Source of the DNA: Gekko japonicus
Lineage: Eukaryota
Direction of reading: 5' to 3'
Assembly (NCBI RefSeq): GCF_001447785.1
Contig: NW_015177030.1
Span: forward strand, 408,053-472,052
Length of the DNA: 64,000 nt
Shown: positions 40,301-43,300 of the stretch, in pieces
Numbering within the stretch: position 1 is the stretch's first letter
Layout of the letters: the number at the start of each line of letters is the position of its first letter
Position numbers: made by a program

Positions 40301-43300
40301 GGGGCCCCCTCCTCCAGCCTTGCCCCACTTAATTTCTCCCTCTACCGTGTGGCCTGACACTGTGCCAGGAAGGGGGTCCACCGCGTCACGGCCCCCTTGG
40401 GAAGCTCCCTGAGTAAGCCGGGGTGGGGGTGGGGAGAGGGCTCCTTCCTCCAGCCTCCCACCTTGGTCAGAACGGCCCCTCTCCTCCGACGTTGCCTCCT
40501 GCAGTATTCTGTGTCCCCCCCCCCAGCTCACCAGAACCTTCCCTCGGGGGCCTCTGTCCACGCAAACAGTGCCTCTTGGATCCAGTGGTCGGAAGCTGAG
40601 GTTCTGGCACTCAGCAGCCAGTCTTGGCCTGCGATGTCACAGAAGCTGAGCAAGCTTCACTTTGGCTGACTTAATTTCTACTTGACTAAAAGCAGGGATT
40701 TATGCAGCAGAAGTGGGTGCAAAAGCTCTTATTAAACGTTAGGGGCTTTGCACAGAAAGCGGGGGATTTCATAAGAAACTTGTGAGTGGTTATTTGGGGG
40801 GGGTGCTTTAATTTGCTGCACCCCCCTCCTTCTCCTCCTCCTCCTGCCCCCATGCCTTTCCTCGCTTCTCCCCAGGGGGCTCCTGTCCGAGGCCCTCTCC
40901 CTTCCCAGCCTCTCCTCTGGGCGGGGCTTGTTTTTGTAACACCCCTNNNNNNNNNNNNNNNNNNNNNNNNNNNNNATGCGGAGGCGGTGGTGGGTGCACG
41001 CAAGGGGGGGGGGGGGGGGGGGGGGGGGGAACAGCTTGGCTGCCTGCTCCTGTTTAAAAGGTGTCCAGTTTGGTGTCCGCTGAGGCTCCCCCAAGGGAGA
41101 AAGGCTGGGGTGCAGAGGACTGCCCGTGGAAAGGTTGGCGTGGGAAGCCCTTGTCTGCCTCAGTGCCCAGAAAGCTCCCTGTGCCTGCATTGCTCACCTG
41201 GCAGAAGGTGTGGCTGCTGTGCTTCCCCAAACCTTGCTCCCTGCACCACCACCACCCCGTGCGTATGGGATGCCTCCCTCTGCTTCTCTTGGGTTAAGAA
41301 CATAAGAGACGCCAATGTTGGATCAAGCCAAAGGCCCATCCAGCCCAACACTCTGTGTCACACAGTGGCCAGAAATCTTTCCGAGGGGAGAGCCAACATC
41401 CTGCGACTTGCAGGCCCACCCCCTGAACTGCTCCATCCCAGCCCCCTTTCCCAGGGGCCTTTTGTGTGCCCAGGAGGGGGGGGTCTTATCTTCAGGCTAG
41501 CCCTTTGTGGCCTACTCAGAGACCCCCTCCCATTGCCAGCCTCCAGGTGGAACCTGGAATTCTGGAATTCCAGTTTTTATCCAGTGGTACCTTTAAGACC
41601 AGGAAGGTTCAATTCTGGGGATCAGCTTTCGTGAGCATTTCCGGACTACAGAGATTGGTTTCCATTGAGGAAAAGTGCAGACTCTGGGAATACCAGGCAG
41701 CCTAGGAGAAAATGAGGTCCTGGAGTGGTATCGCATCTCCGCTAAACTTCCTCCCCAAACTCGCTTTCCCCAGGCAAACCCCCCCTCCCCCCAAAAAAAG
41801 CCTCCAGGCTTTTCCCACACTTGAACTGGCAGCCCTCAACCCCCAGATCCTGGTTGGAGGGCCCCTCCCTAGCTCAGCCCCGTCACAGCAACGGGGTTTC
41901 TCCCCGTGCAGAGATGTTTCCGTCCTGCAGCCCTGCCGTCCTTGTGGTGGCTTAGCAGGGACCACAGAAAGCCCCGGGAGGAAAGGGAGGAGAAGTCCCT
42001 GCACAGCGCACATGCTTGGGCTACCTGGTTTCGGCAAGACCTGCAATGCAGCCTCCCTTCCTTCTGAAAGGCTGACGTACATCCACACGTGCTTTCCCTC
42101 CACGCCACGCCCCAACCCTGCTTGGCCCTGACATGTAGGGTTCCCACTCCACCCCTTGCTGAGACCTCAGAATCAGACGTGGAAAGGGTGGGTGGGGGGA
42201 CACTGTATTGCAAGACGTGTTGTCCACGTGGGTCAGTTGGCGCTGCTGTCGCCCAGGCGCAAAGGGGAGGCGGAGAACGCAAGCCCAGCCAGGATCCCGG
42301 AGACGTGGCCAGTGACGGAGCTCCTGTAAGAAAAGGGGGAGAGAGACACGGGCATCAGCAGCTCCCCTCTGGCATTGCTCGCTTGCCTTTAGGATGTCCC
42401 ACGCACACCCCTCCCCCCCCCCACAACAAAGGGCCCAGGGGAGGCGTGGGCCAGGCCTTTGTCCTGGGAATAGCACCTGCCTCTGAGCAGGTCCAGACTG
42501 CATCCCAGTTCTGGTTTCCTCAAAAGGGCAGGAGTTTCCCAACTTGGGCCGGGCCTACCTGGGGTGGATGACGGCAAGCAGGAGGCATTCCAGGATGCAC
42601 AGCCACCTGGTCGTCAAGGCGACGCCGCTGGCCAGCGTGGCCACTGGGAAGGGCTCCACCTGCCGGCCCATGGCTTCCAGCGAGAAGAGGACCCCTGCGT
42701 GCGGGACCAGAGGGAGGCGGGGCTAGCACGAGCAGCAGGGGAGGTGGGCGTGGAGGCCTGGGGGGGTGGCCAGCTCCAGGCAGAGGTGTTCCTGGAGATC
42801 TGGGGGTGTGGCTGCCTGGGGAGGGTGGAGTCTGGGCAGGAGGACCCCAATCCCATCGAGCGCACGCTGCAAAGCGGCCGTGTTTCCCGGGGAGCCGATC
42901 GCTCTCATCTGGCGATCAGCTGGCAGGCCCCACCTGGAGGCTGGCACCCCTCGCAGACGGTTCGGCCTCCGCTCTCCACGTGAGGGGGCGTGGAGAGAGA
43001 GAGAGGCGCCAGGCCAGGACGAACCGCACCTGAGAATCCCACGGCGCAGTGTTCCCAGTACCACTGTTGCCCGGTGACCGCGGCCAGCGTGGCGTTGAGC
43101 ACCAGGTGCAGCAGCCCACCCAGCAGCGCCAGGAGGAGCAGAACGGTGCCCGTCCGTAGGCTGCCCACCTCCTGCTCCATCCGCCAGCCCAGCCAGACGA
43201 GGGTGGCCATGTTCATCAGCAGGTGGCCCGTGCTCAGGTGGTGGAAAGGTGCCAGGAGCAGCCGGTGCCACTGGCCCCGCTCCCACACGGTCTGCACGCT

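What the first reader, a model, noticed from the sequence alone, without database searches (positions are those of the whole stretch)
42233..42323. The rhomboid paralog ends just after TM6, with no ubiquitin-interacting or p97/VCP-binding tail
Seen: TGA at 42235-42233 comes 24 codons after the catalytic His, with no convincing splice donor before it. Established: RHBDL4 uses a cytosolic C-terminal UIM and a VCP-binding motif to link ubiquitinated substrates to ERAD. Inference: this paralog would be a minimal, ubiquitin/p97-independent protease core, so its substrates may differ.
Basis: partly seen in the sequence, partly recalled or inferred. Interest (0 to 1): 0.7.

Follow-up and report, generated by a model that had tools for sequence, protein, structure and literature searches.

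The report
Tail-less RHBDL4-like rhomboid gene in gecko
This is an intact three-exon gene for a 194-residue rhomboid protease related to RHBDL4 that ends just after its last membrane helix, a short form kept across lizards, snakes and turtles and sitting at a different locus from RHBDL4 itself.

Summary
On the minus strand, three coding exons (43387-43030, 42694-42559, 42323-42233) give 194 codons plus TGA at 42235-42233, the 24th codon after the catalytic His. No usable splice donor lies before the stop.

The short end is not an artefact of this assembly. All 14 full-length annotated orthologs from squamates and turtles ("rhomboid-related protein 4-like", 187-199 aa) end 16-25 residues after the His. 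The Gekko kuhli protein ends with almost the same residues.

No exon resembling the RHBDD1 tail (UIM plus p97-binding motif) exists anywhere in the 64 kb. Left-out RHBDD1 controls score 56-88 bits; the best window ORF scores 5 bits.

The catalytic and helix motifs are invariant, so this is probably an active protease core and not a pseudogene.

The gene lies between an AGFG-like and an IRS-type gene, downstream of a NYAP-like gene. This matches the published mouse Irs3 neighbourhood, not the IRS1-RHBDD1-COL4A4 one. It is therefore probably an old duplicate of RHBDD1 on the IRS3 paralogon.

Independence from ubiquitin and p97 is an inference and was not tested. No paper describing this gene was found.

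The parts
43030..43387 (-). Coding exon A. ATG at 43387-43385, with an in-frame stop upstream at 43453-43451. Encodes TM1-TM3 and the start of TM4, including the HHxxxxHxxxN motif and GFSG. The catalytic Ser codon TCA is at 43033-43031. The donor is CAG|GTGCGG.
   Evidence: Pfam Rhomboid PF01694, E 1.1e-14, 55.3 bits. tblastn with Gekko kuhli P0007: 86.9% identity over 122 aa, E 6e-55.
42695..43029 (-). Intron 1 (GT...AG, phase 1).
   Evidence: The join is confirmed by the continuous ...AVGFSGVLFSLEAMG... in 12 of 12 aligned orthologs.
42559..42694 (-). Coding exon B: rest of TM4, loop and TM5 (VLFSLEAMGRQVEPFPVATLASGVALTTRWLCILECLLLAVIHP). The donor is CAG|GTAGGC.
   Evidence: tblastn with P0007: 90% identity over 50 aa, E 9e-24. 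No Pfam hit on its own.
42324..42558 (-). Intron 2 (GT...AG, phase 2), with a polypyrimidine tract before the acceptor.
42233..42323 (-). Coding exon C: TM6 with the catalytic His (CAC at 42307-42305) in GHVSGILAG, an 11-residue-scale tail, and TGA at 42235-42233.
   Evidence: tblastn with P0007: 96.7% identity over 30 aa.
40807..42232 (-). Possible 3' UTR. The only AATAAA/ATTAAA on this strand within 4.2 kb of the stop is ATTAAA at 40812, 1,420 nt downstream and beyond the N run 40947-40975. The true transcript end is unknown.
   Evidence: This is inference only.
32060..32158 (+). Neighbour: AGFG-like ArfGAP-domain exon. It belongs to a gene convergent with the rhomboid gene. FG/NPF-rich ORFs at 34101-34355 and 38504-39253 may be later exons.
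   Evidence: PDB 2d9l/2olm 'Nucleoporin-like protein RIP', E 8.2e-11. ORF listing. The FG/NPF assignment rests on recall of AGFG protein make-up.
54319..59994 (+). Neighbour: IRS-type gene. The PH domain (54319-54645) and the PTB domain (59623-59994) lie on separate ORFs about 4.8 kb apart.
   Evidence: Pfam PH 4.6e-08 and IRS PTB 1.9e-22. PDB 1qqg residues 7-114 and 141-264.
531..16358 (+). Neighbour: NYAP-like gene. The C-terminal exon ORF is at 16065-16358, and an N-terminal MNLLYRK... start is at 531.
   Evidence: Pfam NYAP_C, E 8.6e-48. Start seen; its assignment to NYAP rests on recall.

Best explanation
The stop at 42235-42233 is the true end of a complete, conserved gene for a 194-residue, six-helix rhomboid intramembrane serine protease of the RHBDL4/RHBDD1 lineage. 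The protein has neither the cytosolic C-terminal tail (UIM and p97/VCP-binding motif) nor the conserved N-terminal segment of RHBDD1.

The catalytic Ser (GFSG, TM4), the catalytic His (GHxSGxLxG, TM6), the TM2 HxxxN motif and the two TM6 glycines are kept. These glycines match human G198/G202, which are needed for RHBDL4 cleavage. The most likely mechanism is therefore ordinary rhomboid Ser-His cleavage of membrane-embedded or membrane-proximal substrates. Substrates would be recognised through the membrane core alone, and the enzyme would bind neither ubiquitin nor p97 directly.

The gene is an old duplicate of RHBDD1 and not a recent copy. It lies in the NYAP-AGFG-IRS neighbourhood that matches the IRS3 paralogon. 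It groups with '4-like' proteins of a caecilian and a shark, and it is kept in squamates and turtles.

Shown here: the gene structure, the stop, the conservation of the short end, the absence of tail exons, the motif conservation and the neighbours. Inferred: catalytic activity, independence from ubiquitin and p97, and origin by the early vertebrate genome duplications.
For: Structure and stop.

Family: Pfam Rhomboid on exon A, E 1.1e-14.

Orthologs: 17 of 17 hits in the near-length search are reptile rhomboid proteins or unnamed fragments of them. Twelve are named, at 58-88% identity to exon A. A profile search finds further ones in Anolis and Pelodiscus.

Short end conserved: 12 of 12 aligned orthologs and 14 of 14 full-length orthologs end 16-25 residues after the His.

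Invariant columns include H49, H50, H55, N59, G117, F118, S119, G120, G170, H171, G174 and G178.

No tail:
- tblastn with crocodilian, bat, frog and fish RHBDD1 hits only the three exons. The best tail hit has E 0.37, at 37411-37301 (the output was cut).
- A profile of 16 RHBDD1 tails scores three left-out RHBDD1s at 55.7-88.1 bits. The best of 2,810 window ORFs scores 5.1 bits.
- The UIM-only profile gives 33.9-52.7 bits for controls against 6.7 bits for the window.
- 0 of 19 short or '4-like' proteins match the tail profile.

Fold: the AlphaFold2 model of the Gekko kuhli ortholog has mean pLDDT 76.5. Its last helix spans 164-183 of 194 residues. Its best PDB matches are GlpG rhomboid proteases over about 195 columns, TM 0.5-0.6, with 30 matches at E <= 0.001.

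Tree: the 14 short proteins form one clade (100/99). That clade joins Rhinatrema '4-like' (100/97) and Hemiscyllium '4-like' (99/98).

Locus: NYAP_C, AGFG ArfGAP exon and IRS PH plus PTB.

Papers:
- Mouse Irs3 is flanked by Lrch4 and Agfg2, and Nyap1 is in the same figure. Irs1 lies with Rhbdd1, Nyap2 and Col4a4 (PMC5482937, passages and section 7).
- RHBDD1 lies between COL4A4 and IRS1 (PMC12141075, section 6).
- G198V and G202V RHBDL4 mutants do not cleave (PMC9437926, figure legend passage).
Against: - No transcript evidence was available. The six unnamed contig-derived proteins that cover exon A all read on into intron sequence, so they say nothing about the 3' end.
- All orthologs are computational gene models, and these could share a blind spot.
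- The VBM-only profile was weak: only 1 of 3 left-out controls was found. Absence of a VBM therefore rests on the whole-tail profile and tblastn.
- The N run at 40947-40975 and four other N runs hide some sequence.
- The structure model is of moderate confidence, is low over residues 121-170, and is of an ortholog, not of the window's own joined protein.
- The short clade sits on a long branch of 1.1 changes per site. The tree places it inside vertebrate RHBDD1, next to tetrapod RHBDD1, with support of only 80/82. A duplication before the jawed vertebrates would predict a different place. The AU test fails to reject the older origin (p 0.253) but does not show it.
- Whether this gecko also keeps a canonical RHBDD1 was not checked. 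None of the 84 hits was a squamate or turtle 'rhomboid-related protein 4' proper, though only 8,000 word-sharing candidates were scored.
- Which IRS, AGFG and NYAP paralogs these are was not tested against references. It rests on gene order and papers.
Confidence: 0.72

Rival explanations
1. The gene has further, unrecognised 3' coding exons or an alternative isoform that supply a UIM/VBM tail, so the short form is an annotation artefact.
For: There is no transcript data. The only polyadenylation-like hexamer on the strand is 1.4 kb downstream, past an N run. Longer isoforms are annotated in Pogona, Chrysemys and Pelodiscus at 231-251 aa.
Against: No credible donor lies before the stop. No tail-like ORF exists in 64 kb: best 5.1 bits against 56-88 bits for controls. 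The longer isoforms differ by internal insertions or a duplication between exons A and B, and they end at the same C-terminus. A convergent AGFG-like gene has probable exons up to about 39.2 kb, so only about 3 kb is free.
Confidence: 0.06
2. It is a decaying or non-functional duplicate (a pseudogene or unexpressed relic) whose tail has already been lost.
For: The clade sits on a long branch of 1.1 changes per site. Both termini are lost. No expression evidence was seen here.
Against: The ORFs are intact and of nearly the same length in 14 of 14 full-length orthologs spanning squamates and turtles. There are 61 invariant columns, including every catalytic and helix-packing motif, and mean column identity is 74%. 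Splice sites are canonical.
Confidence: 0.07
3. The core is active but still feeds ubiquitin/p97-dependent degradation. It would do so by pairing in the membrane with full-length RHBDL4 or another adaptor (Derlin- or erlin-type) that supplies the missing motifs in trans.
For: The TM6 GxxxG glycines, which RHBDL4 needs for cleavage, are invariant (PMC9437926 passage). Crocodilians, and by the synteny paper reptiles in general, keep RHBDD1 at the COL4A4-IRS1 locus.
Against: Nothing tested here speaks for binding, and no complex prediction was run. Whether a canonical RHBDD1 is present in this genome was not checked.
Confidence: 0.13
4. The TGA is a sequencing or assembly error in this window.
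For: None beyond the general possibility. Reads were not available.
Against: The Gekko kuhli ortholog from another assembly ends at the same codon. Heteronotia ends one residue later and Paroedura two earlier.
Confidence: 0.02

Closest known systems
RHBDL4 / RHBDD1 (vertebrate ER rhomboid protease, 'rhomboid-related protein 4')
   Same: It is the nearest family by sequence. After the reptile clade and two '4-like' proteins, the next hits are fish, frog, crocodilian and bat RHBDD1 at 33-42% identity over 96% of the query. The GFSG Ser, the GHxxGxLxG His with both TM6 glycines, the HHxxxxHxxxN motif and the short L1 loop are shared.
   Different: There is no UIM and no VBM: 19 of 19 named RHBDD1s carry the GGL(S/T)EEEQ-type UIM, while 0 of 19 short or '4-like' proteins match. 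About 11 residues follow the predicted TM6 helix, whereas RHBDD1 carries about 120 residues after its catalytic His. The MQRRxRG...N-terminal 26 residues are absent. The locus is different, AGFG/IRS-type and not IRS1/COL4A4. The branch is long.
Bacterial GlpG-type minimal rhomboid core
   Same: Size and architecture match: a six-helix core of about 180-195 residues with almost no cytosolic extension after TM6. It is the best structural match of the ortholog model (4qnz, 8ab5, 2nr9 and others, TM 0.5-0.6).
   Different: Sequence identity is only 17-23%, and exon A gives no sequence-level PDB hit. GlpG has an N-terminal cytoplasmic domain in the full protein (recalled). This is a vertebrate gene derived from the RHBDL4 lineage, so the likeness is a secondary reduction and not shared descent of the short form.
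Automatic annotations 'rhomboid-related protein 4-like' in squamates and turtles (for example Heteronotia binoei, Paroedura picta, Podarcis raffonei, Sceloporus undulatus, Anolis carolinensis, Chrysemys picta bellii)
   Same: These are orthologs: 58-88% identity to exon A, the same three-part structure and the same short end.
   Different: They are names given by pipelines only. No paper in the searched library uses the phrase or the variants 'RHBDD1-like', 'RHBDL4-like' or 'rhbdd1l'.

Membership tests
Rhomboid family (MEROPS S54 / Pfam PF01694) active proteases | Significant match to the Rhomboid domain profile | tested here: met
   Exon A alone: E 1.1e-14, 55.3 bits against a cut-off of 22.6. 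Exons B and C are too short to score alone.
Rhomboid family (MEROPS S54 / Pfam PF01694) active proteases | Catalytic Ser in a GxSG motif at the top of TM4 | tested here: met
   AVGFSG, with the Ser codon at 43033-43031. S119 is invariant in 12 of 12 orthologs. Anolis has GLSG.
Rhomboid family (MEROPS S54 / Pfam PF01694) active proteases | Catalytic His in TM6 followed by GxxxG-type small residues | tested here: met
   GHVSGILAG, with the His codon at 42307-42305. G170, H171, G174 and G178 are invariant.
Rhomboid family (MEROPS S54 / Pfam PF01694) active proteases | TM2 HxxxN motif (oxyanion and structural residues) | tested here: met
   FHHLSTGHLLMN in exon A. H49, H50, H55 and N59 are invariant. 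The motif's role is recalled.
Rhomboid family (MEROPS S54 / Pfam PF01694) active proteases | Six-helix rhomboid fold | tested here: met
   Tested on the Gekko kuhli ortholog as a stand-in, because the window's exons were not joined. pLDDT 76.5, pTM 0.67. The top 30 or more PDB matches are GlpG. Confidence in the model is moderate.
Rhomboid family (MEROPS S54 / Pfam PF01694) active proteases | Proteolytic activity | not testable with these tools
   This needs an expression and cleavage assay.
RHBDL4/RHBDD1 orthology group | Cytosolic C-terminal ubiquitin-interacting motif | tested here: not met
   UIM profile: controls score 33.9-52.7 bits, the best window ORF 6.7 bits, and short orthologs at most -1.5 bits.
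RHBDL4/RHBDD1 orthology group | C-terminal p97/VCP-binding motif | tested here: not met
   The whole-tail profile, which includes the VBM, gives controls 55.7-88.1 bits, the window 5.1 bits, and matches 0 of 19 short or '4-like' proteins. The VBM-only profile was underpowered, finding 1 of 3 controls.
RHBDL4/RHBDD1 orthology group | Position between IRS1 and COL4A4 | tested here: not met
   The window has NYAP-like, AGFG-like, rhomboid and IRS-type genes in that order, and no collagen was noticed. The reference order is taken from PMC12141075 section 6 and PMC5482937. The IRS PH domain is only about half identical to human IRS-1 in the printed alignment.
RHBDL4/RHBDD1 orthology group | Falls inside the RHBDD1 clade of the same taxa | tested here: not met
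   The 14 reptile short proteins form their own clade with caecilian and shark '4-like' proteins (99/98). This clade is apart from crocodilian, bird, frog and bat RHBDD1 (96/87).

The most novel reading that the evidence does not exclude
This is an undescribed vertebrate rhomboid protease gene. It would be the counterpart of RHBDD1 on the IRS3/AGFG2/NYAP1 paralogon, made by the early vertebrate genome duplications. It was kept in sharks, caecilians, turtles and squamates, and lost in birds together with the IRS3 region, and in mammals.

It would then be a natural 'tail-less RHBDL4'. Such an enzyme separates intramembrane cleavage from ubiquitin recognition and p97 recruitment. It would also add a fourth linked gene family (IRS, NYAP, AGFG, rhomboid) to the argument that IRS3 arose by genome duplication, a point that PMC5482937 left open.
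Probability: 0.45. Interest if true: 0.6.

Novelty: new variant of a known kind. Interest (0 to 1): 0.45.

Why it matters
RHBDL4 is the one vertebrate rhomboid protease wired directly to ER-associated degradation through its tail. A naturally tail-less relative that has kept every catalytic motif for hundreds of millions of years offers an evolutionary experiment. It can show what the membrane core does without built-in ubiquitin and p97 coupling. It is also a compact candidate for structural work on the RHBDL4 lineage: a sequence search with exon A and a fold search with the ortholog model found no solved RHBDL4-type structure.

Its position next to an IRS3-type gene also bears on how the IRS/COL4/RHBDD1 neighbourhoods arose. 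In addition, it gives a simple reason for the gene's absence from birds, because the IRS3 region is reported deleted there. If it turns out to be merely a reduced paralog with redundant function, it is of modest, mostly annotation-level interest.

Tried and rejected
N runs were listed by script instead.
I replaced this with locally built profiles of RHBDD1 tails searched against all stop-to-stop ORFs.
- The VBM-only profile, built from 9 of 19 sequences caught by my pattern, found only 1 of 3 controls. It is not relied on.
- The PDB sequence search with exon A found nothing at E <= 1.
- The unnamed contig-derived proteins P0004, P0010, P0011, P0013, P0018 and P0019 were looked at in the hope of spliced transcripts. 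All continue from ...GFSG into non-homologous intron-like sequence, so they give no 3'-end evidence. They were not used further.
- P0006 (564 aa, unnamed) is a two-rhomboid-domain protein of something else and was set aside.
- The weak tblastn match of the crocodilian UIM region to 37411-37301 (E 0.37-0.55) lacks the acidic run and was rejected as chance.
Whether P0088 (186 aa) is another short form in another lineage stays open.
- Reading the gene as a pseudoprotease (iRhom- or Derlin-like) was rejected because Ser and His are present. iRhom and Derlin structures match less well than GlpG.
- The ESM Atlas, complex prediction, Rfam and the bacterial genome collection were not used because they do not bear on the question.
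Full report
**What is in the sequence**

On the minus strand, three ORF pieces carry a rhomboid protease. A script fixed the exon borders.

- Exon A runs 43387-43030. Its ATG is at 43387-43385, an in-frame stop lies upstream at 43453-43451, and its donor is CAG|GTGCGG.
- Exon B runs 42694-42559, with donor CAG|GTAGGC.
- Exon C runs 42323-42233. It follows a pyrimidine-rich acceptor and ends with TGA at 42235-42233.

The three pieces add up to 585 nt, that is 194 codons plus the stop. Exon C reads (R)SSVTGHVSGILAGLAFSASPLRLGDSSAN*.

Only three GT dinucleotides precede the stop. They match 4, 4 and 2 of 9 consensus positions, against 7 of 9 for the two real donors. One lies before the His, and the other two would cut through TM6.

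Searches were done exon by exon, and the nearly identical Gekko kuhli ortholog served as a stand-in where a whole protein was needed.

**What family it is**

Exon A alone matches Pfam Rhomboid (E 1.1e-14). It carries FHHLSTGHLLMN and AVGFSG, and exon C carries GHVSGILAG.

Protein searches with exon A gave the following.

- The near-length search found 17 proteins: 12 named and 5 unnamed fragments.
- The longer-length search found 5 proteins.
- The named hits are 'rhomboid-related protein 4-like' or unnamed-function models from several groups:
  - geckos: Gekko kuhli 88%, Heteronotia binoei 87%, Paroedura picta 84%, Sphaerodactylus 78%;
  - other squamates: Podarcis, Phrynosoma, Sceloporus, Hemicordylus, Naja, Phrynocephalus, Pogona;
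  - turtles: Chrysemys, Lepidochelys.
- A profile search added Anolis, Pelodiscus and partial turtle models.

The window is therefore from a gecko and is not human.

**Is the short end real?**

- The 12 aligned full-length orthologs are 187-199 aa long.
- Counting Anolis and Pelodiscus as well, 14 of 14 end 16-25 residues after the His.
- Gekko kuhli ends ...LRLGDSSTN, the same codon as here.
- Three longer annotated isoforms (Pogona 246 aa, Chrysemys 251 aa, Pelodiscus 231 aa) differ by an internal duplication or retained-intron-like inserts between exons A and B. They end at the same C-terminus.
- The alignment has 61 invariant columns, including H49, H50, H55, N59, G117-G120 (GFSG), G170, H171, G174 and G178. 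Mean column identity is 74%.
- An AlphaFold2 model of the Gekko kuhli protein, built with this alignment, has mean pLDDT 76.5. Its last helix spans 164-183 of 194 residues, so about 11 residues follow TM6.
- The best PDB matches of that model are GlpG rhomboid proteases over the whole length. There are 30 matches at E <= 0.001, TM 0.5-0.6, and iRhoms and Derlins rank lower.

**Is a tail hiding elsewhere?**

- tblastn of named RHBDD1 proteins against the window hit only the three exons. The queries were gharial, crocodile, frog, bat and fishes.
  - The best match to any tail segment had E 0.37, at 37411-37301, and lacks the acidic run.
  - That output was cut, so the rows for three queries and parts of two others were not seen.
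- All 19 named full-length RHBDD1s carry a GGL(S/T)EEEQ..A...SL-type UIM. Most end with an EE.R.RRL.RF-type motif.
- A profile of 16 of these tails scored the three left-out proteins at 55.7-88.1 bits. The best of all 2,810 stop-to-stop ORFs of the window (121,149 residues, both strands) scored 5.1 bits (E 5).
- A UIM-only profile gave controls 33.9-52.7 bits and the window 6.7 bits.
- None of the top 12 window ORFs of any of these profiles lies on the minus strand between 35,000 and 42,232.
- A VBM-only profile was too weak to use, finding 1 of 3 controls.
- None of 19 short or '4-like' proteins matched the tail profile.
- The short proteins also start directly at TM1 (MVPWATL...). They lack the MQRRxRG... 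segment shared by crocodilian, bat, frog and killifish RHBDD1.

**Premise about RHBDL4**

Passages of PMC9437926 state three things.

- R308A, or deletion of the p97-binding motif, stabilises cleavage fragments.
- G198V and G202V mutants do not cleave.

The two glycines correspond to the invariant G174 and G178 here.

**Where the gene sits**

Ranking ORFs by third-position GC and testing them identified the neighbours.

- The ORF at 16065-16358 (+) matches NYAP_C (E 8.6e-48).
- An AGFG-type ArfGAP exon lies at 32060-32158 (+), E 8.2e-11 to PDB 2d9l. FG/NPF-rich ORFs follow up to about 39.2 kb.
- An IRS-type gene (+) has its PH domain at 54.3-54.6 kb and its PTB domain at 59.6-60.0 kb, on separate ORFs.

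The rhomboid gene is thus convergent with the AGFG-like gene, and only about 3 kb lies between that gene's last likely exon and the rhomboid stop. An ATTAAA lies on the plus strand at 40731 and another on the minus strand at 40812.

The literature gives the reference gene orders.

- In PMC5482937 (passages and section 7), mouse Irs3 is flanked by Lrch4 and Agfg2, with Nyap1 in the same figure. Irs1 lies with Rhbdd1, Nyap2 and Col4a4.
- The same paper reports Irs3 in reptiles. It reports that the Irs3 region, with Lrch4 and Agfg2, is missing from birds.
- Its authors left open whether Irs3 arose by genome duplication.
- In PMC12141075 (section 6), RHBDD1 lies between COL4A4 and IRS1 across jawed vertebrates, and AGFG1 is in the same block.

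The window therefore looks like the IRS3-type neighbourhood, and the short rhomboid looks like the RHBDD1 counterpart there. Which IRS, AGFG and NYAP paralogs these are was not tested against reference proteins. That assignment rests on gene order.

**Tree**

I built a tree of 33 named proteins using 309 columns and the LG+C20 PMSF model.

- The 14 short proteins form one clade (100/99).
- That clade is joined by the Rhinatrema '4-like' protein (100/97) and the Hemiscyllium '4-like' protein (99/98).
- The joint clade hangs on long branches beside tetrapod RHBDD1, with weak support (80/82).
- Forcing all RHBDD1s into one clade costs 5.3 log-likelihood units and is not rejected (AU p 0.253).

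A duplication before the jawed-vertebrate radiation is therefore compatible with the data but not shown.

In the exhaustive representative search the reptile cluster scored 304 bits, and the next full-length proteins scored 174 bits. Names for those could not be retrieved.

**Literature**

No paper in the searched library holds 'rhomboid-related protein 4-like', 'RHBDD1-like', 'RHBDL4-like', 'rhbdd1l' or 'rhomboid domain-containing protein 1-like'. A 2025 review of rhomboids in vertebrates (PMC12476590, find mode) has no occurrence of 'paralog', 'reptil' or 'duplicat'. Subscription journals and supplements were not searchable.

**Verdict**

The gene most likely encodes an active, minimal RHBDL4-lineage protease that cannot itself bind ubiquitin or p97.

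That it acts independently of them, and on other substrates, remains an inference. It could still use partners in trans.

The gene already exists in automatic annotations but appears undescribed. The more interesting point is its likely status as an old RHBDD1 duplicate on the IRS3 paralogon, lost in birds and mammals.

Three things stayed unchecked: transcripts and reads, whether this genome has a canonical RHBDD1, and the neighbours of the orthologs.

Noticed in passing
window 531-16358 (+): A NYAP-like gene. Its C-terminal exon ORF at 16065-16358 matches Pfam NYAP_C (E 8.6e-48). An MNLLYRKSKVEWK start lies at 531. By gene order it is probably the NYAP1-type paralog.
   Followed up: partly
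window 32060-32158, 34101-34355, 38504-39253 (+): An AGFG-like gene. One ArfGAP-domain exon matches PDB 2d9l/2olm at E 8.2e-11. FG-rich and NPF-containing ORFs lie further on, with an NPF at 38882. It is convergent with the rhomboid gene. The first exons may lie in or near the N run at 28346-28917.
   Followed up: partly
window 54073-54726 and 59518-60633 (+): An IRS-type gene whose PH and PTB domains lie on separate ORFs about 4.8 kb apart, with the N run 56686-57604 between them. The PTB is close to human IRS-1, while the PH is only about half identical. A split, short IRS next to AGFG fits Irs3 as described in PMC5482937.
   Followed up: partly
window 40731 (+) and 40812 (-): ATTAAA hexamers sit on both strands about 80 bases apart, between the convergent AGFG-like and rhomboid genes. 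These may be facing 3' ends. Next to them are the N run at 40947-40975 and a run of 26 G (plus strand) at about 40995-41020.
   Followed up: no
window about 26955-27818: Twin identical weak hits about 545 bases apart point to a direct repeat of about 545 bp. The hits are at 27223-27273 and 27768-27818, 26955-27056 and 27500-27601, and 27236-27135 and 27781-27680.
   Followed up: no
window 5460-6660 and 45030-45440: These look like retroelement remains. There is a weak RVT_1 match at 6491-6655 (E 0.025, below the cut-off). An ORF with ...FKYLKGCHLEEGRELLLL... at 45031-45363 had no Pfam hit. From recall, it resembles the tail of reptile CR1-type elements.
   Followed up: no
proteins P0006 and P0088 (unnamed sources): P0006 (564 aa) carries two rhomboid domains in tandem and an ...EELRRRRIERFS end. 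P0088 (186 aa) matches the short-form profile end to end at 169.6 bits and may be another tail-less form in another lineage. Neither origin could be looked up.
   Followed up: no
proteins P0027 (Rhinatrema bivittatum, 250 aa) and P0051 (Hemiscyllium ocellatum, 295 aa): These '4-like' proteins of a caecilian and a shark group with the reptile short clade. They have tails of about 60-70 residues after the His that do not match the RHBDD1 tail or UIM profiles. The loss of the UIM/VBM may therefore predate reptiles, or these tails may be gene-model artefacts.
   Followed up: partly
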